A stretch of 64,000 nucleotides of DNA from Fimbriimonadales bacterium (GTDB taxonomy: Bacteria > Armatimonadota > Fimbriimonadia > Fimbriimonadales > JABRVX01): the NCBI GenBank assembly GCA_045862955.1, contig BTVI01000003.1:40762-104761 (forward strand), in the 5' to 3' direction. Both the position numbers and the translations under genes were made by a program. Positions within the stretch are counted from its first letter, which is position 1, and each line of letters opens with the position of its first letter. This document shows positions 3,116-44,432 of this stretch, piece after piece. The notes beneath the pieces were generated by a model that had not been told where the DNA came from, searched no databases, and saw only the letters and a program-made list of their open reading frames with translations.

Positions 3116-3376
3116 TTGGTGCTGGTGATGGCGGGGTGCGAGGCGTGCGAGCGTGCGGTGGGGGCGCTCACGAGGGGCGGGGTGCCCTTCATTGCAGTGC
3201 GGAGATGCAGCGAAGCTGCCGGTCCACCCTGCTTCGCCGATGCAGCGCTAGACACGGCATACCCCACCTTTCTGGTGCTGGACGAGAGCGGGCGGATGGA
3301 GAGGATTTCGGCGGGATGGCCTTCGGGTGCAACCGCCGATGAAGCCGTCGAGTATTACAGGAGGTGTACGCAGTGA
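3116..3376 (+). pseudogene. 3' fragment of an oxidoreductase paralogue (C-terminal thioredoxin-fold domain only); may still be translated as an ~82-86 aa CxxC mini-protein
   Basis: It matches codons ~322-406 of the 128..1336 gene almost exactly and keeps GCEAC. No upstream TM or TRX1 portion is present. In-frame TTG 3116 and ATG 3128 exist. Its stop overlaps the next gene's GTG, as in copy 1. Confidence 0.6.
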
Positions 3377-37949: not shown

Positions 37950-38213
37950 AGCCTACCCGACCAGGCCTCCCGCGCTCCCGCCCCCTCAGTGCCTCCTTCA
38001 TCCTTCACCACTCGCCGTGGTGAGGCAAGCATGATGTGCGATACGCAAGAGGACTTGTCAGACTAGCCACGAAGCAAGCTGCGGAGTGCCGTACTCAGCC
38101 ACCCGGTTGCCCGCGGGATTGCGGGGTGGCGCGGGACCAAGGGCGGGGATAACCGCAGTCCAACAGAAGAGTCTCCAAGAAAGTGACACTATATATGGTG
38201 TCAAGACGGTATA

Positions 38214-38489
38214 ATGATAAAGAGACGCCTTGTAGACGTCTGGAGGGACGGGAACCGTGCAGGACATCGAGTCGACGAGGTGTTGGCCGAACTGAAGCGG
38301 TTGGACTTCAGCCTCGTGCTGACGACCAAGGGCCACTACAAGATATGGCATCCGAAGCTCGAATGCTGCCCGCACTTCCCGATGGGGTTCATCTTGATAA
38401 ACCCCCATGCTTTCGGAAGGCAGGGCGAAGTCCACCCGGCCGCCATCCGGGACATACTGAAGGCCCTAGATTGGATTGAACAGGAATGA
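38214..38489 (+). CDS. hicA: HicA-like toxin (mRNA interferase family)
   Basis: The segment ..VLAELKRLDFSLVLTTKGHYKIWHP... fits the HicA pattern (L.k.GF....kGSH...hp). It overlaps the hicB start by 4 nt. Its own start is ambiguous: ATG 38214 or GTG 38280. Confidence 0.6.
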   Translation: MIKRRLVDVWRDGNRAGHRVDEVLAELKRLDFSLVLTTKGHYKIWHPKLECCPHFPMGFILINPHAFGRQGEVHPAAIRDILKALDWIEQE

Positions 38490-39082
38490 AGACGCTGAAT
38501 GAGTTGCTGAACGCCTACACGATCAAGGTCACGCCTCTGCCTGCTTCGGATGGTGGGGGGTTCGAGGCGATCTACGAAGAGCTTGCGTCAACCGCTGCCG
38601 GCTATGGTGAAACGCCTGCGGCGGCCGTTGACGCACTCCGCGAGCTTGCAGAGAACGGACTGTCGGACGAGCCGCTGGATAGCATGCCCGCACCACGGAC
38701 CCACGCGCCGTGGGCGTCGTACAGCGGGCGGGTAACGCTGCGCCTGCCGAAGACCCTCCACGCCCGCCTCGACCGGCTGGCGGACGAACAAGGCGTGAGC
38801 CTTAACCAACTGATGGTTCAGGCCCTCCAGTCCGCTGCGGATGCCCTCACCGCAGGCCTGGACTTCGGCCCCGTATTGCCCGCAACGTCTCCGTCAATCA
38901 TCGGCGAGATGCGAGAGGTTCGAGCGGCCATGGACGAGGTAGCGAGTTCATCACTCGTCGTGATTCCTGCTGTTGACTTCGAACCGCAGTATCGGCGCAC
39001 CGGTAAGAGGCACGGACTGAAATTCGAGCGCATCGGAGGTGACGATGGTGGCTACGGGCGTATCGAGCCCAGTATCTGCTGA
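38486..39082 (+). CDS. hicB: HicB-like antitoxin (HicB N-domain plus RHH) with a ~80-aa C-terminal extension
   Basis: The N-terminus TIKVTPLPASDGGGFEAIYEEL...GYGETPAAAVDALRE looks like a HicB fold. It is followed by YSGRVTLRLPKTLHARLDRLADEQGVSLNQLMVQAL (RHH), then an extra tail. Confidence 0.7.
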   Translation: MKTLNELLNAYTIKVTPLPASDGGGFEAIYEELASTAAGYGETPAAAVDALRELAENGLSDEPLDSMPAPRTHAPWASYSGRVTLRLPKTLHARLDRLADEQGVSLNQLMVQALQSAADALTAGLDFGPVLPATSPSIIGEMREVRAAMDEVASSSLVVIPAVDFEPQYRRTGKRHGLKFERIGGDDGGYGRIEPSIC

Positions 39083-39590
39083 GGAGTTCGCCGCATTCCT
39101 CTCTGGTCTCGTTATGCGGTCCATCAGGATTGTGCGCTGCGAGGCCGAGGTTGCATCGCGCCCGGCAACTGACGACTCTCAGGCCCTGCTGGAATTCGGC
39201 GAGGACGCCGAGCTGGTGACTTGCGAGGATCGAATCGCCGTGGTCCATGCAACGTACGGGGTGCGCCTCATTGTGCTTGGAGCCGACGGTGTGCCAGAGG
39301 GACAGCCGGCTGCCGAGCTCACCGTAACGTATCGAGTGGAGTACGACGTGGAGTCCCCGATGACAGAAGACATCTTCGCGGAGTTCCGTAAGGTCACCTT
39401 GCGCTTGCACACGATACCGTTTGCTCGTGAGTGGATACGCGAGACTTCAGCTCGAATGGGCATCAGACCGATCTTGCTGCCGTTGGCGCTGTCGCACCCC
39501 GCTGCCGTACCGCATCGGCCAGCGCCTGGGTCAGGCAGCCCGACGCGAGGAAAGCGAGTGCGGGCGAGCCGAAGGCCGGCTGTTGATTGA
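39039..39590 (+). CDS. SecB-like chaperone (third component of a toxin-antitoxin-chaperone module)
   Basis: The C-terminal motif LHTIPFAREWIRETSARMGIRPILLPL resembles the SecB motif (ILFPYAREcI....G.P.L.L.P.NF). The size (~160-183 aa) also fits. The start is ambiguous: 39039, 39045 or 39114. Confidence 0.55.
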   Translation: MTMVATGVSSPVSAEEFAAFLSGLVMRSIRIVRCEAEVASRPATDDSQALLEFGEDAELVTCEDRIAVVHATYGVRLIVLGADGVPEGQPAAELTVTYRVEYDVESPMTEDIFAEFRKVTLRLHTIPFAREWIRETSARMGIRPILLPLALSHPAAVPHRPAPGSGSPTRGKRVRASRRPAVD

Positions 39591-39598
39591 GAGTGTTC

Positions 39599-39678
39599 CA
39601 TGCCCCGAGCCTCCGGCTGCGGGGCCGGCAGGTGACCTTTCTCCCTCGGCGAAGCCCAGCAGCCGAGCGTCGGGGCTT
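39599..39678. repeat. Diverged solo copy of the second hairpin-repeat family
   Basis: The sequence ccatgccccgagcctccggctgcgggg...cccagcagccgagcgtcgggg aligns with the units at 26848-27437. Confidence 0.6.
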
Positions 39679-42163: not shown

Positions 42164-42237
42164 TGGCTGGCGGGGGAGGATTCGAACCTCCACAAGCAGA
42201 ACCAAAATCTGCTGTCCTGCCCTTAGACGACCCGCCA
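42164..42237 (-). tRNA. tRNA-Gln (anticodon UUG), CCA encoded
   Basis: The reverse complement folds as a cloverleaf. The acceptor is TGGCGGG/CCCGCCA (U1-A72, as in bacterial tRNA-Gln). The anticodon stem is GCAGA/TCTGC with loop TTTTGGT. The T-arm is GGAGGTTCGAATCCTCC. Length is 74 nt. Confidence 0.9.
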
Positions 42238-42347: not shown

Positions 42348-43022
42348 CTATCGGTTGCGACGCCCTCGGAACATGCGGAGCCCGATCAGGCCTAGACCAA
42401 CGGTTACGAGCGTTGCAGGCTCAGGAACGAGACCTGGGACGTACACACCGACGTTCTGACCCGAGTATCCGCCACCGGATGCAGTTGCGACCCAAAGGAT
42501 CCCCGCATCGGGCTCGTACAGGCTGTGGATTTGGAACATCAGCGCGGTGTCGGCTACGTCGGGTGACGCACTGCCTACGCGTATTGCGCTCGAGGTGGTT
42601 CCAGCCCACTCGGCATCTCCAGCAGCTTCATCTCCGATGAAAAACCACGGGATGAAGTTGACTCCCCCGCCCTTGCCACCGCCGTTACCGAGGTTTACGA
42701 ATGGCGAGATATCGGTCAAGCCGAAATAGGTGATTGCGCCAGGAACACCGGTGATGCTGCTGCCCGACACGTTCCGAATTCTATAAGAGTAGAAGTAGCC
42801 AGGATCGCCCACATGAGTGAACGCCCAGTAGTCGACATAGACATCCCCGAGGGAGACCCCCGGAACAGGATCGAGCAACACGGAACCCTGGTACAGGATA
42901 TTTACGTTGGGGTCCAAAGCATCGGGGTCGACATACGATACAGCGCCCGCCTGGACAACGAGACCAGACAGGGCGACCGTAATCAACGTCCCCCAAAACA
43001 ACCTTCTCACGGACACGGCCAT
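42348..43022 (-). CDS. PEP-CTERM sorting-domain secreted protein
   Basis: It has an N-terminal signal peptide. The C-terminus VPEPATLVTVGLGLIGLRMFRGRRNR gives PEP, a TM helix and a basic tail. Confidence 0.85.
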   Translation of the reverse strand: MAVSVRRLFWGTLITVALSGLVVQAGAVSYVDPDALDPNVNILYQGSVLLDPVPGVSLGDVYVDYWAFTHVGDPGYFYSYRIRNVSGSSITGVPGAITYFGLTDISPFVNLGNGGGKGGGVNFIPWFFIGDEAAGDAEWAGTTSSAIRVGSASPDVADTALMFQIHSLYEPDAGILWVATASGGGYSGQNVGVYVPGLVPEPATLVTVGLGLIGLRMFRGRRNR

Positions 43023-43391
43023 CGCGTACCTCCTTGATGTTCGCGATAGTTCCGGGAGTTCGGCACAACGATCACTTCGGCCGTCTAAAACTCTCCTTCA
43101 AACTATTCGCGCTGGACCAGACTGTTAAAAGCAATTGGAGACATGGGGCAATTTCCCCAGTCTCCCAGGTTGCGGCCAAAAACAACGTAGTCAGAGCTAG
43201 CTCGTGACCGCGACTTACATAGGCTGCGCGGCTGCCGTATCCCTCGGACGGCTTTGCGCCGACCGGGCGGCTCACCACTATTCTACACCAAGTTCCCCCC
43301 AATTGGTACAGGAGCGGCGGAAAAAAGGGATAAAACCGTGTCGATCCTCAGGAGCACAGACCCGTGCGCAGCCTCGTTCTGAGCGGGTACC

Positions 43392-44432
43392 GTGCTCTCG
43401 ATGAGTCACATGCTGGACGAGATGAGCGAACAGCCTCGGATTCTGCGCGGCGCCGTGGACAGGCTGTGGCAGCGCTCGGTGGCAGCGGCGAAGGCTGCCA
43501 GGAGCTGCCCATTCGTGGTGATCGCTGCTCGCGGAACCTCGGACCACGCCGCTACCTACGCCAAGTACCTGCTCGAAATCCGTTGCGGCATGCCGGTCGC
43601 GTTGGCGGCGCCGAGCGTCCTCACGTTGTACGGTGCACGGCTCCGTCAAAAGGGGTCGCTGGTTGTTGGCATTTCCCAGTCCGGTGCCGCCCCCGACGTG
43701 ACGGCGGTCGTCCAGGAAGCAAGACGGGCAGGCGCGGTGACCTTGGCCATCACCAACGAGGAGCAAAGTCCGTTGGCGCAGGCAGCGGCGCACCTGTTGC
43801 CGCTGGGCGCAGGACGCGAGCGTTCGGTCGCGGCTACCAAGACCTATACGGCCACTCTGGGGGCGCTGTTGGTCTTTGCGCACGCTCTGGTAGGTATGGA
43901 GCCTCCCAAACGCGAGATCGAGGCAGCGGCCGACGCGGTGGAATCTGCCCTAAAGGCGGCTCCTGAGATCGAGCGTATCGCGGAACGGTTCCGCTTCATG
44001 GAAGAGTGCGTTGTGCTCGGTCGTGGCTACAACTATGCCACTGCTCTCGAGACTGCACTGAAGATCATCGAGACGAGCTACGTAATGGCGAAATCCTACT
44101 CTGCCGCCGATTTCATGCATGGCCCGATGGCGCTACTGCGACAAGGCTTTCCGTGCCTAATGATGGCCAACTCGGGTCCGAGTCTGCCTGCGGTCCGGGA
44201 GCAAGCCACCAAGCTGCTCGAGCGCAAGGCCGAGCTGATGGTGTTCTCCGATGACGAGGAGATGCTGCGGCTGGCACGAGTGCCCATGCGAGTGCCCTTC
44301 TCGATCCCGGACGAGCTGGCGCCGATCGCGTATGTCGTCTATGGGCAGCTATTCGCCTACTACTTGGCAAAGACGCGTGGGCTGAATCCGGACAGGCCTC
44401 GGGCGCTCAGAAAGGTGACCCGCACGCTCTGA
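43392..44432 (+). CDS. Double SIS-domain sugar-phosphate isomerase/deaminase (AgaS / FrlB / GlmS-C-like)
   Basis: It contains VVIAARGTSDHAA, GISQSGAAPDV and VAATKTYTA, and a second SIS half. Confidence 0.7.
   Translation: MLSMSHMLDEMSEQPRILRGAVDRLWQRSVAAAKAARSCPFVVIAARGTSDHAATYAKYLLEIRCGMPVALAAPSVLTLYGARLRQKGSLVVGISQSGAAPDVTAVVQEARRAGAVTLAITNEEQSPLAQAAAHLLPLGAGRERSVAATKTYTATLGALLVFAHALVGMEPPKREIEAAADAVESALKAAPEIERIAERFRFMEECVVLGRGYNYATALETALKIIETSYVMAKSYSAADFMHGPMALLRQGFPCLMMANSGPSLPAVREQATKLLERKAELMVFSDDEEMLRLARVPMRVPFSIPDELAPIAYVVYGQLFAYYLAKTRGLNPDRPRALRKVTRTL

What the first reader, a model, noticed from the sequence alone, without database searches (positions are those of the whole stretch)
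38214..39590. Tripartite toxin-antitoxin-chaperone (TAC) module of the HicA / HicB / SecB-like type
Three overlapping plus-strand genes make up the module. The first is a HicA-like toxin. The second is a HicB-like antitoxin whose RHH domain is followed by a ~80-aa extra tail. The third is a protein whose C-terminus (LHTIPFAREWIRETSARMGIRPILLPL) resembles the SecB signature. In the Mycobacterium tuberculosis HigB-HigA-SecB(TA) system, a dedicated SecB-like chaperone binds a C-terminal chaperone-addiction extension of the antitoxin. HicAB-associated versions have been predicted but are rare. The extended HicB tail here fits that model. The locus sits in a slightly AT-richer patch between a sugar-utilisation cluster and prs, followed by a hairpin repeat.
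Basis: partly seen in the sequence, partly recalled or inferred. Interest (0 to 1): 0.65.

Follow-up and report, generated by a model that had tools for sequence, protein, structure and literature searches.

The report
HicA-HicB-SecB-like toxin-antitoxin-chaperone module
This is a three-gene toxin-antitoxin-chaperone cassette (a HicA-type RNase toxin, a HicB antitoxin with a long sticky tail, and a dedicated SecB-like chaperone); the type has already been described and tested elsewhere, and here it appears as a very divergent, rare lineage from Armatimonadota bacteria.

Summary
Three overlapping + strand genes lie at 38214-39590, behind a conserved 20-bp palindrome (38184-38203).

- **Gene 2** is a Pfam HicB (E=1.4e-11). 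Its RHH domain ends near residue 118 and is followed by an 80-aa tail.
- **Gene 3** has no Pfam match. Its AlphaFold model hits only SecB structures: the top 19 PDB hits are all SecB, and the best is the M. tuberculosis TAC chaperone Rv1957 (E=1.7e-7).
- **Gene 1** is a divergent HicA. It scores below the Pfam cutoff, but a 49%-identical relative scores 26.8 against a cutoff of 27 bits. The model has a HicA-like fold and the "GH" histidine is conserved.

The same toxin-antitoxin-chaperone order, and the same operator, recur in at least 8 unrelated metagenomic contexts, even where the proteins are only 26-35% identical. One close two-gene relative has no chaperone, and its HicB tail is short, hydrophilic and free of aromatic residues. 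This fits the chaperone-addiction model.

HicAB-type TACs were catalogued in 2013, and one was validated experimentally in 2016. This is therefore a new, divergent member of a known kind. It is rare: 2 of 185,579 species genomes, both Armatimonadota MAGs. Chaperone dependence, toxicity and tetramer formation are inferred, not shown. The "hairpin repeat" downstream is unremarkable.

The parts
38184..38203 (.). Palindrome TGACACTATATATGGTGTCA, 10 nt upstream of the hicA ATG. It is the probable HicB (RHH) operator, and its TATATA core may be the -10 element of the promoter.
   Evidence: Inverted repeat I8. It is unique in the 64-kb window, with 0 expected by chance. The same motif, TGACAY-YATATAT-RGTGTCA, lies 10-14 nt upstream of the first gene in L001, L003, L005, L008, L009, L010 and L014. 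A core, CACTATATATGGT, is present in the distant L011. The operator role is inferred.
38214..38489 (+). hicA-like toxin gene (91 aa). It is a divergent HicA with an ~18-aa N-terminal extension and an insertion of roughly 10 aa (about residues 47-58) between strands 2 and 3. Histidines H41, H46 and H65 are conserved.
   Evidence: Pfam HicA_toxin E=0.072, below the cutoff. Ten of 25 family members hit HicA_toxin; the best is P0018 (49% identical to the window protein) at 26.8 bits against a cutoff of 27, E=5.5e-6. AlphaFold model pLDDT 93.8 with helix-3 strands-helix. The best PDB fold matches are 1whz (TMt 0.59) and B. pseudomallei HicA 6g26_E/F (TMt 0.65-0.66), but with Foldseek E about 1. H41 aligns with the GGH histidine of 1whz and the histidine of E. 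coli HicA.
38486..38839 (+). hicB antitoxin core (residues 1-118). [quoted passage not shown]
   Evidence: Pfam HicB PF05534 E=1.4e-11, RHH_1 1.4e-4, RHH_5 1e-4. NCBIfam YlcI_YnfO_N 1e-6. The profile weakly hits the Arc and Mnt repressors in PDB. Alignments.
38840..39082 (+). hicB C-terminal extension (residues 119-198, plus the stop codon): the candidate chaperone-addiction (ChAD) region. It contains a conserved FG (127-128), a helical-looking stretch (138-150), the most hydrophobic 9-mer of the protein (LVVIPAVDF, 157-165; DNA 38954-38980), and aromatic residues F165, Y169, F180 and Y190.
   Evidence: No family match. [quoted passage not shown] Hydropathy scan. The chaperone-less relative L014 has a 37-aa hydrophilic tail with no aromatic residues. 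The ChAD function is inferred.
39045..39590 (+). SecB-like (SecB-TA) chaperone gene, 181 aa from ATG 39045. An alternative GTG lies at 39039, and the SD GGAGG at 39035-39039. The product has a four-stranded sheet plus C-terminal helices and ends in a basic Pro/Arg/Lys-rich tail (net charge +6 over the last 31 residues).
   Evidence: No Pfam or NCBIfam hit. The only PDB sequence hit is 5mtw_C, Rv1957 SecB-like, E=0.036. PADLOC PD-T4-9_C E=0.021. AlphaFold model pLDDT 73.4. Foldseek against PDB: ranks 1-19 are all SecB; 5mtw_C has E=1.7e-7, prob 1.00, TM 0.47/0.59. Family alignment. The public annotation reads 'hypothetical protein AMXMBFR61_03130, Fimbriimonadales bacterium'.

Best explanation
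The locus is a tripartite type II toxin-antitoxin-chaperone (TAC) operon of the HicAB class.

**Transcription (inferred).** One promoter, overlapping the palindromic operator at 38184-38203, drives three translationally coupled genes.

**Toxin (inferred from family).** HicA is a small dsRBD-fold, histidine-dependent, ribosome-independent RNase that would arrest growth by cleaving RNA.

**Antitoxin (inferred from family).** HicB binds and blocks HicA through its N-terminal domain. Through its RHH dimer it also represses the operon at the palindrome.

**Chaperone addiction (inferred by analogy).** The 80-aa C-terminal tail of HicB is hydrophobic, contains aromatic residues, and is probably disordered. 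It would make the antitoxin aggregation- or protease-prone unless held by the dedicated SecB-like chaperone encoded by gene 3. The analogy is to Mtb HigBA1-SecB(TA), Mmet-HicAB-SecB(TA) and E. coli HigBAC. Anything that titrates or removes the chaperone would destabilise HicB and release HicA. Candidate triggers are a surge of unfolded client proteins or, as shown for E. coli TACs, a phage structural protein.

**Shown here:** gene structure, domain identities, the SecB fold of gene 3, conservation of the module and the operator, and correlated loss of the chaperone and the sticky tail in a relative.

**Not shown:** toxicity, neutralisation, chaperone dependence, oligomeric state, and the trigger.
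For: **Identity of the three proteins.**
- HicB identity and the RHH domain.
- The SecB fold of gene 3, with the TAC chaperone Rv1957 as best match and only SecB entries in ranks 1-19. Supporting weak sequence hits to Rv1957, to the CmdTAC chaperone model PD-T4-9_C and to the E. coli SecB motif.
- HicA identity: family-level Pfam hits, a confident model with best fold matches to HicA proteins, and a conserved histidine.

**The three genes behave as one module.**
- The same T-A-C order, with overlapping genes, occurs in L001/2, L003/6, L004/5, L008, L009, L010 and L011/12, in unrelated neighbourhoods.
- The third gene of the distant L011 locus is still homologous (hhalign 99.6%).
- An even more distant HicB + SecB-like pair occurs in L016, with an uncalled HicA-like ORF upstream.
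- The operator is conserved in all of these loci and is unique in the window.

**Tail and chaperone go together.**
- The tail carries the most hydrophobic segment of HicB, plus aromatic residues.
- The chaperone-less two-gene relative L014 keeps the operator, HicA and the HicB core, but its tail is short, hydrophilic and lacks aromatic residues.

**Literature.**
- TAC antitoxins of the HicB class all carry RHH domains (PMC3581621).
- Mmet-HicB has its ChAD at residues 119-159, the same boundary as here, and that system is chaperone-dependent (PMC5105189).
- ChAD elements are aromatic-containing, aggregation-prone disordered tails (bioRxiv 10.1101/2024.02.24.581848).
Against: - Gene 3 fails the Pfam SecB model, and the family profile finds nothing in PDB by sequence.
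- The gene 3 model has only moderate confidence (pLDDT 73). Confidence is low (52-61) exactly over the conserved C-terminal helices, and TM-scores are modest (0.47-0.59).
- The HicA assignment is below Pfam threshold for the window protein, and Foldseek E-values are about 1.
- The window's HicB ends differently from its homologues. It has an extra GGDDGGYGRIEPSIC and lacks the terminal Ala that most homologues (and Mtb and Mmet ChADs) have. Its degron or ChAD may therefore be altered.
- No regular ~30-aa aromatic spacing like that of E. coli HigA ChAD is seen.
- No experiment or complex prediction was possible.
Confidence: 0.82

Rival explanations
1. The same TAC architecture serves as an anti-phage abortive-infection sensor. 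The SecB-like chaperone would be titrated by a nascent phage structural protein, HicB would then be lost, and HicA would degrade RNA. This extends the best explanation rather than excluding it.
For: E. coli TACs (HigBAC, CmdTAC, MqsRAC) defend against phage, and HigC senses the lambda tail protein gpV through the ChAD-binding groove. There is a weak PADLOC hit to the CmdTAC chaperone model. Homologous modules sit beside MmeI-type RM genes, a Fic gene, ~1690-aa DEAD helicases, and an RM specificity subunit + kinase + TIR. GC3 is lower than in the flanking genes, which suggests horizontal origin.
Against: In this window the module lies between housekeeping genes (DHDPS-family/ABC transporter and prs-glmU), not in a defence island. 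No phage, trigger or defence assay is available. Neighbourhood association rests on a handful of loci only.
Confidence: 0.35
2. The locus is an ordinary two-gene HicAB plus an unrelated downstream gene. Gene 3 would be a general SecB-like export or holdase chaperone, or a protein of other function, that merely happens to be adjacent. The HicB tail would have another role, such as oligomerisation.
For: Gene 3 has no Pfam match and only moderate model confidence. A functional-looking two-gene version exists (L014).
Against: Gene 3 overlaps hicB and is found only next to this HicAB type in every locus examined, across 26-56% identity. It is extremely rare (15 clusters in 5.8 billion proteins; 2 of 185,579 species), unlike a housekeeping chaperone. 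Its best structural match is a TA-dedicated SecB. It has a basic rather than an acidic C-terminal tail; my own knowledge is that the acidic surface and tail of SecB contact SecA. Loss of gene 3 coincides with loss of the hydrophobic tail.
Confidence: 0.05
3. The module is a decayed or inactive remnant. The altered HicB C-terminus (read-through into the chaperone gene) and the divergent HicA would mean that the cassette no longer works as an addiction or defence system.
For: The window's HicB has a unique 15-aa C-terminal extension, and its overlap with gene 3 is 38 nt against 4-8 nt in homologues. Another copy (L015) looks frameshifted.
Against: All three ORFs are intact and full length. The conserved histidines, the RHH strand, the chaperone motif and the operator are all preserved. 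A good SD precedes the chaperone ATG. L015 comes from a nanopore-type assembly, so sequencing error is likely.
Confidence: 0.08

Closest known systems
Mmet-TAC (HicA Metme_2813 / HicB Metme_2812 / SecB-TA) of Methylomonas methanica MC09, the experimentally validated HicAB-type TAC (Bordes et al. 2016, PMC5105189)
   Same: The T-A-C gene order is the same, and the TA pair is of the HicA/HicB class. The antitoxin core ends at about residue 118, followed by a C-terminal extension (Mmet ChAD is residues 119-159). The third gene is a dedicated SecB-like chaperone. Sala et al. 2013 note that all TAC HicB antitoxins have RHH domains, as here.
   Different: The tail here is twice as long (80 against 41 aa). 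The chaperone and toxin are too divergent for the Pfam SecB and HicA models. The host phylum is different (Armatimonadota, not Proteobacteria). No direct sequence comparison with the Mmet proteins was possible here. Function is untested.
Mycobacterium tuberculosis HigB1-HigA1-SecB(TA) (Rv1955-Rv1956-Rv1957; PDB 5mtw)
   Same: Rv1957 is the best structural match of gene 3 (Foldseek E=1.7e-7, 21% identity) and the only PDB sequence hit. The logic is the same: an antitoxin with a C-terminal ChAD extension, held by the chaperone.
   Different: The toxin and antitoxin families differ (HigB/HigA-HTH against HicA/HicB-RHH). There is no detectable similarity between the tails. The Mtb ChAD ends in ...VEVA (derived from the primer sequence), whereas the window's HicB ends in ...EPSIC.
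E. coli anti-phage TACs: HigBAC, CmdTAC (PD-T4-9), MqsRAC
   Same: They are tripartite and have a SecB-like chaperone that recognises an aromatic-containing disordered ChAD of about 96 aa in HigA. There is a weak profile hit of gene 3 to PD-T4-9_C (E=0.021).
   Different: The toxins are different (HigB RNase, CmdT ADP-ribosyltransferase, MqsR). A defence role is demonstrated there but only conjectured here.
Canonical two-gene HicAB (e.g. E. coli HicAB 6hpb, B. pseudomallei HicAB 6g26)
   Same: The toxin has a dsRBD-like fold with a conserved His. The antitoxin has an N-terminal HicB domain plus a DNA-binding domain. Autoregulation through a palindromic operator is expected.
   Different: There is no chaperone and no long tail. 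The HicA here is ~30 aa longer, with an N-terminal helix and an internal insertion. E. coli HicB uses an HTH rather than an RHH domain (my own knowledge).

Membership tests
TAC (toxin-antitoxin-chaperone) systems | Three co-oriented genes in one operon, in the order toxin, antitoxin, SecB-like chaperone | tested here: met
   ORFs at 38214-38489, 38486-39082 and 39045-39590 overlap by 4 and 38 nt. The order is conserved in at least 8 independent loci.
TAC (toxin-antitoxin-chaperone) systems | The chaperone has the SecB fold | tested here: met
   The AlphaFold model (pLDDT 73.4) gives Foldseek PDB ranks 1-19 that are all SecB; the best is 5mtw_C Rv1957, E=1.7e-7, prob 1.00. Caveat: this is a monomer model of moderate confidence.
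TAC (toxin-antitoxin-chaperone) systems | The antitoxin carries a C-terminal extension (ChAD) beyond its DNA-binding domain; the extension is variable, aggregation-prone and contains aromatic residues | tested here: met
   An 80-aa tail follows the RHH domain. It is the most variable region. It contains the most hydrophobic 9-mer of the protein and five aromatic residues. The hydrophobic, aromatic tail is absent from the chaperone-less relative L014.
TAC (toxin-antitoxin-chaperone) systems | The antitoxin needs the chaperone to neutralise the toxin, and removing the ChAD abolishes that dependence | not testable with these tools
   This requires co-expression and toxicity-rescue assays. No complex-structure prediction was available.
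TAC (toxin-antitoxin-chaperone) systems | The chaperone forms a SecB-type tetramer (dimer of dimers) | not testable with these tools
   Only monomer prediction was possible.
SecB (Pfam PF02556) | Sequence match to the SecB profile above the gathering score | tested here: not met
   None of the 15 family members hits Pfam SecB at E<=1. The family profile finds no PDB SecB by sequence. Only short motif-level alignments were found. The protein is SecB-like by fold, but it is not a member of the Pfam family as currently modelled.
HicA toxin (Pfam PF07927) | Sequence match to the HicA_toxin profile above the gathering score (27 bits) | tested here: not met
   The window protein scores 13.6 bits, E=0.072. 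A homologue, P0018, scores 26.8 bits, E=5.5e-6, just below the cutoff. Ten of 25 members hit weakly. Control: E. coli HicA itself finds no other PDB HicA by phmmer, so the family is intrinsically divergent.
HicA toxin (Pfam PF07927) | dsRBD-like alpha-beta3-alpha fold with the conserved catalytic histidine after strand 1 (G-x-H) | tested here: inconclusive
   The model is confident (pLDDT 93.8), with helix, 3 strands and helix. The best fold matches are the HicA-like 1whz and HicA 6g26, with TMt 0.59-0.66 and rmsd 3.2-3.8, but the Foldseek E-values of 1.2-5.7 are not significant. H41 is nearly invariant and aligns with the His of 1whz and of E. coli HicA.
HicB antitoxin (Pfam PF05534) | Sequence match above the gathering score, RHH DNA-binding domain, gene immediately downstream of hicA | tested here: met
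   44.6 bits against a cutoff of 21, E=1.4e-11, plus RHH_1 above its cutoff. There is a 4-nt overlap with the upstream gene.

The most novel reading that the evidence does not exclude
This Armatimonadota-centred clade may be a distinct, previously unrecognised lineage of HicAB-type TACs. Its SecB-like chaperone (basic C-terminal tail, invisible to the SecB Pfam model) and its enlarged HicA have co-diverged with a strictly conserved operator. The clade may act as a phage-sensing abortive-infection system. A natural chaperone-less sister locus (L014) may record how chaperone addiction is gained or lost through exchange of the antitoxin tail.
Probability: 0.3. Interest if true: 0.45.

Novelty: new member of a known kind. 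Interest (0 to 1): 0.3.

Why it matters
TAC systems are a compact model for how a chaperone can gate a toxin, and recent work shows that they sense phage proteins. This locus extends HicAB-type TACs to Armatimonadota. It shows that current profile libraries (Pfam SecB and HicA, PADLOC) miss such members; the public annotation calls genes 2 and 3 'hypothetical protein'. It also offers a natural matched pair: a three-gene module with a sticky tail and a two-gene relative with a hydrophilic tail, both behind the same operator. That pair could be used to test how chaperone addiction evolves. It does not reveal a new principle.

Tried and rejected
- **Sequence route to SecB.** Pfam, NCBIfam and a family-profile search of PDB gave nothing for gene 3. 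Only fold comparison settled it.
I used representatives instead.
- **Word-indexed homologue search for HicA** found only one near-identical protein. The exhaustive search found 28.
- **P0025 and P0038** (1011 and 845 aa, multiple 'stretches') are tandem-repeat proteins that match by summed weak repeats. I rejected them as artefacts and left them out of the alignment.
- **Downstream 'hairpin repeat'.** It folds no better than shuffles, is not repeated in the window, and the only Rfam hit is a chance one (mir-3155, E=0.5). I rejected it as part of the system.
- **Sigma-70 promoter scan** found no canonical promoter. The promoter assignment within the palindrome stays speculative.
- **Regular ~30-aa aromatic spacing**, as in E. 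coli HigA ChAD, was looked for and not seen.
- **L015** looked like a variant with a 220-aa third gene, but it is probably a frameshifted or error-prone assembly.
Full report
**1. What is in the sequence**

The interval holds three + strand ORFs.
- Gene A: 38214-38489 (91 aa).
- Gene B: 38486-39082 (198 aa).
- Gene C: 39039-39590. Its likely start is the ATG at 39045, which gives 181 aa. GGAGG at 39035-39039 precedes it, and the public annotation of the identical protein is 181 aa.

A and B overlap by 4 nt (ATGA). B and C overlap by 38 nt. Upstream on the - strand lie a periplasmic sugar-binding protein, an ABC permease and a DHDPS-family aldolase. Downstream on the - strand lie prs and glmU. 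The window matches a Fimbriimonadales (Armatimonadota) MAG, in which genes B and C are annotated 'hypothetical protein'.

**2. Gene B is a HicB antitoxin with an extra tail**

Pfam HicB scores 44.6 bits against a cutoff of 21 (E=1.4e-11) over residues 74-114, with RHH_1 and RHH_5 on the same stretch. NCBIfam and PDB profile hits (YlcI/YnfO, Arc, Mnt) agree that this is a ribbon-helix-helix domain. The N-terminal ~65 residues carry the conserved DGGGF…GYGET…A pattern shared by all homologues.

[quoted passage not shown] They still contain three notable features:
- a conserved FG;
- the most hydrophobic 9-mer of the whole protein (LVVIPAVDF, 157-165);
- five aromatic residues and a recurring distal L-x-[YF]-x-x-[LIM] motif.

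**3. Gene C has the SecB fold**

No Pfam or NCBIfam family is matched by it or by any of its 14 homologues, and the family profile finds nothing in PDB by sequence. Three weak hits all point the same way:
- The single PDB phmmer hit is Rv1957, the M. tuberculosis TAC chaperone (E=0.036).
- PADLOC gives PD-T4-9_C, the CmdTAC chaperone model (E=0.021).
- hhalign places TIPFAREWIRETSAR on E. coli SecB LFPYARECITSMVSR (E=0.053).

The decisive test was structural. An AlphaFold model from the 15-sequence alignment has pLDDT 73.4, with a four-stranded sheet followed by helices. Searched against PDB, it returns only SecB entries in ranks 1-19. Rv1957 (5mtw) comes first (E=1.7e-7, prob 1.00, TM 0.47/0.59). 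The next class of fold, hot-dog thioesterases, appears at E>5e-3. Confidence in the model is lowest over the conserved C-terminal helices, and tetramer formation could not be examined.

**4. Gene A is a divergent HicA**

The window protein scores only 13.6 bits (E=0.072) on Pfam HicA_toxin. An exhaustive search of 1.84 billion representatives found just 28 relatives. Ten of 25 aligned members hit HicA_toxin. The best is P0018 (49% identical to the window protein), at 26.8 bits against a cutoff of 27 (E=5.5e-6), covering profile positions 3-55 of 58.

The AlphaFold model is confident (pLDDT 93.8) and shows an N-terminal helix, then helix-strand-strand-(short helix)-strand-helix. Its best PDB matches are the HicA-like TTHA1913 (1whz; 25% identity, rmsd 3.2, TMt 0.59) and B. 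pseudomallei HicA (6g26_E/F, TMt 0.65-0.66). The Foldseek E-values are about 1, so the fold evidence is suggestive rather than significant.

The nearly invariant H41 aligns with the GGH histidine of 1whz and with the histidine of E. coli HicA. As a control, authentic E. coli HicA (6hpb) finds no other PDB HicA by phmmer even at E<=10. Weak sequence signal is therefore normal for this family.

**5. The three genes are one inherited unit with a conserved operator**

Homologues of gene C are very rare: 15 clusters in 5.8 billion proteins. Only 2 of 185,579 species-representative genomes carry one, a Chthonomonas sp. MAG and a Fimbriimonadaceae MAG.

Every locus I fetched has the same ~90-aa / ~185-197-aa HicB / ~160-aa order with overlapping genes, but different neighbours:
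- SelB;
- an MmeI-type RM gene plus Fic;
- a kinase, an RM S subunit and TIR;
- ~1690-aa DEAD helicases.

A locus found through a HicA only 35% identical (L011) has the same order. Its third protein is still homologous to gene C (hhalign 99.6%, 26% identity). A still more distant HicB + SecB-like pair (92.6%) occurs in L016, with an uncalled HicA-like ORF upstream.

A 20-bp palindrome, TGACACTATATATGGTGTCA (38184-38203), lies 10 nt upstream of the hicA ATG. It is unique in the window, with 0 expected by chance. The same TGACAY-YATATAT-RGTGTCA motif sits 10-14 nt upstream of hicA in all seven close loci and in L014, and its core persists in L011. Together with the invariant RHH strand GRVTLRLPK, this indicates a HicB operator. 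The AT-rich centre may be the -10 element, but that is inference: no canonical sigma-70 promoter was detected.

**6. A natural control for the chaperone-addiction idea**

One close relative sits on a 2.25-Mb contig (L014, GCA_044506935.1). It has the operator, a 90-aa HicA and a HicB whose core is 59% identical, but no third gene. A succinate-dehydrogenase-type flavoprotein gene follows 80 nt downstream, and tblastn finds no chaperone remnant. Its HicB is 157 aa. Its tail (…AHAEAGKETAKPAKAQVRKTRTSTQAESESAKTKSA) is hydrophilic, lacks the FG and the hydrophobic patch, and has no aromatic residue. This is a single case, but the presence of the chaperone and the presence of a sticky aromatic tail go together, as the ChAD model predicts.

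**7. Mechanism**

By analogy with characterised TACs, the tail makes HicB aggregation- or protease-prone, and the SecB-like protein holds it. This allows HicB to neutralise HicA and repress the operon. Diverting or losing the chaperone frees the RNase.

The analogy rests on three sources:
- Mtb HigBA1-SecB(TA) and the Mmet-HicAB TAC (PMC5105189);
- the survey showing that TAC HicBs all carry RHH domains (PMC3581621);
- E. coli HigBAC and CmdTAC, in which the chaperone senses phage proteins.

The antitoxin-core/ChAD boundary reported for Mmet-HicB (residue 119) coincides with the one here. These mechanistic steps are inferred; none was tested.

**8. Deviations and uncertainties**

- **Unusual HicB C-terminus.** The window's HicB ends with a unique GGDDGGYGRIEPSIC. 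Most homologues end …x[VI]A, or at least in Ala. Decoding the primers printed in PMC5105189 gives …VEVA for Mtb HigA1 and …KQYA for Mmet HicB. The larger overlap with gene C suggests a lost stop codon. Whether this changes degradation or chaperone binding is unknown.
- **Basic chaperone tail.** The chaperone has a basic C-terminal tail (net +6), and basic tails occur in all homologues. E. coli SecB has an acidic tail.
- **Composition.** Compositional evidence for horizontal origin is modest. Only hicA and its upstream region are AT-richer, while GC3 of all three genes (0.68-0.73) is below that of the neighbours (0.78-0.82).
- **Downstream inverted repeats.** They are not remarkable.

**9. Comparison with what is known, and verdict**

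HicAB-type TACs were catalogued in 2013, and one was validated functionally in 2016. This locus meets the testable defining features of a TAC: operon order, SecB fold, and a HicB-RHH antitoxin with a C-terminal extension. It does not meet the Pfam sequence thresholds for SecB and HicA. It should therefore be described as a divergent HicA/HicB/SecB-like TAC rather than as a member of those Pfam families as currently modelled.

It is a new member of a known kind. Its interest is modest: it extends the taxonomic range, exposes a blind spot in the profile libraries, and supplies a conserved operator and a natural three-gene/two-gene pair for studying chaperone addiction.

Noticed in passing
window 38184-38203; also L001 ~3139-3158, L003 ~3153-3172, L008, L009, L010, L014 ~2198-2217, L011 ~220-236: A 20-bp palindrome, TGACAY-YATATAT-RGTGTCA, is strictly conserved 10-14 nt upstream of hicA in all related loci, even where the proteins have diverged to 26-35% identity. 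It is unique in the window. It is probably the HicB RHH operator overlapping the promoter. The short spacing to the ATG implies a very short 5' UTR.
   Followed up: yes
window 39035-39082 (HicB residues 184-198): The window's HicB carries a unique 15-aa C-terminal extension (GGDDGGYGRIEPSIC). It overlaps the chaperone gene by 38 nt, against 4-8 nt in homologues. It lacks the terminal Ala seen in most homologues and in the Mtb and Mmet ChADs. It contains a second F/Y-x-R-I-like element (FERI / YGRI). This may reflect a lost stop codon, and the effect on degradation or chaperone binding is unknown.
   Followed up: partly
L014:2232-2974 (GCA_044506935.1, contig JBIQKD010000001.1): This is a two-gene relative: the same operator, a 90-aa HicA and a 157-aa HicB, with no chaperone gene. 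Its HicB tail is hydrophilic and has no aromatic residues. It serves as a natural control for chaperone addiction.
   Followed up: partly
window 39495-39587 (chaperone residues ~151-181): The SecB-like protein ends in a Pro/Arg/Lys-rich basic tail (net +6). Basic tails are present in all 14 homologues. This is the opposite charge to the acidic C-terminus of E. coli SecB. Its function is unknown; it might bind nucleic acid or an acidic partner.
   Followed up: no
L003/L008 1-3084; L008 6249-8510; L009 4550-8489; L004/L005 2473-6175; L003 4674-5831: Homologous TAC modules often sit next to defence-type genes: MmeI-type N6-methylase/Eco57I fusions, ~1690-aa DEAD/Helicase_C proteins, a Ser/Thr kinase + RM S subunit + TIR_2, and Fic. 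This hints at a defence-island habitat elsewhere, unlike the housekeeping context in this window.
   Followed up: no
L016:2260-2500: A HicA-like ORF is readable upstream of the HicB P0057 but was not called as a gene in the source record (…GGHKLYFH…FNCGHGRNPEIK…). Together with the 165-aa SecB-like gene downstream (hhalign 92.6% to A1), this makes a more distant TAC. It lies next to a DDE transposase.
   Followed up: partly
L015:2131-3638: This copy of the module has an N-terminally truncated HicB (132 aa, with a 100-nt gap after hicA) and a 220-aa third gene whose central sheet region does not align. These are probably frameshifts or assembly errors in a long-read assembly, or else a decaying copy.
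   Followed up: partly
window 42164-42237 (- strand): A tRNA-Gln (TTG) gene lies just beyond glmU, about 2.6 kb from the module, next to a lower-GC stretch (about 0.55-0.57 at 42600-43400). I did not examine whether this marks an integration site.
   Followed up: no
window 38898-39410 (-) and 39179-39601 (-): Long antisense ORFs (170 and 140 aa) lie opposite genes B and C. No evidence was sought beyond noting that the + strand genes have conserved homologues. They are probably the spurious ORFs typical of GC-rich DNA.
   Followed up: no
P0025 (1011 aa), P0038 (845 aa): Two long tandem-repeat proteins scored E=1e-11 and 5e-6 against HicA by summing many weak repeat matches. Inspection shows near-perfect ~70-aa (P0025) and ~170-aa (P0038) tandem repeats unrelated to HicA. 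This is a search artefact worth remembering.
   Followed up: yes
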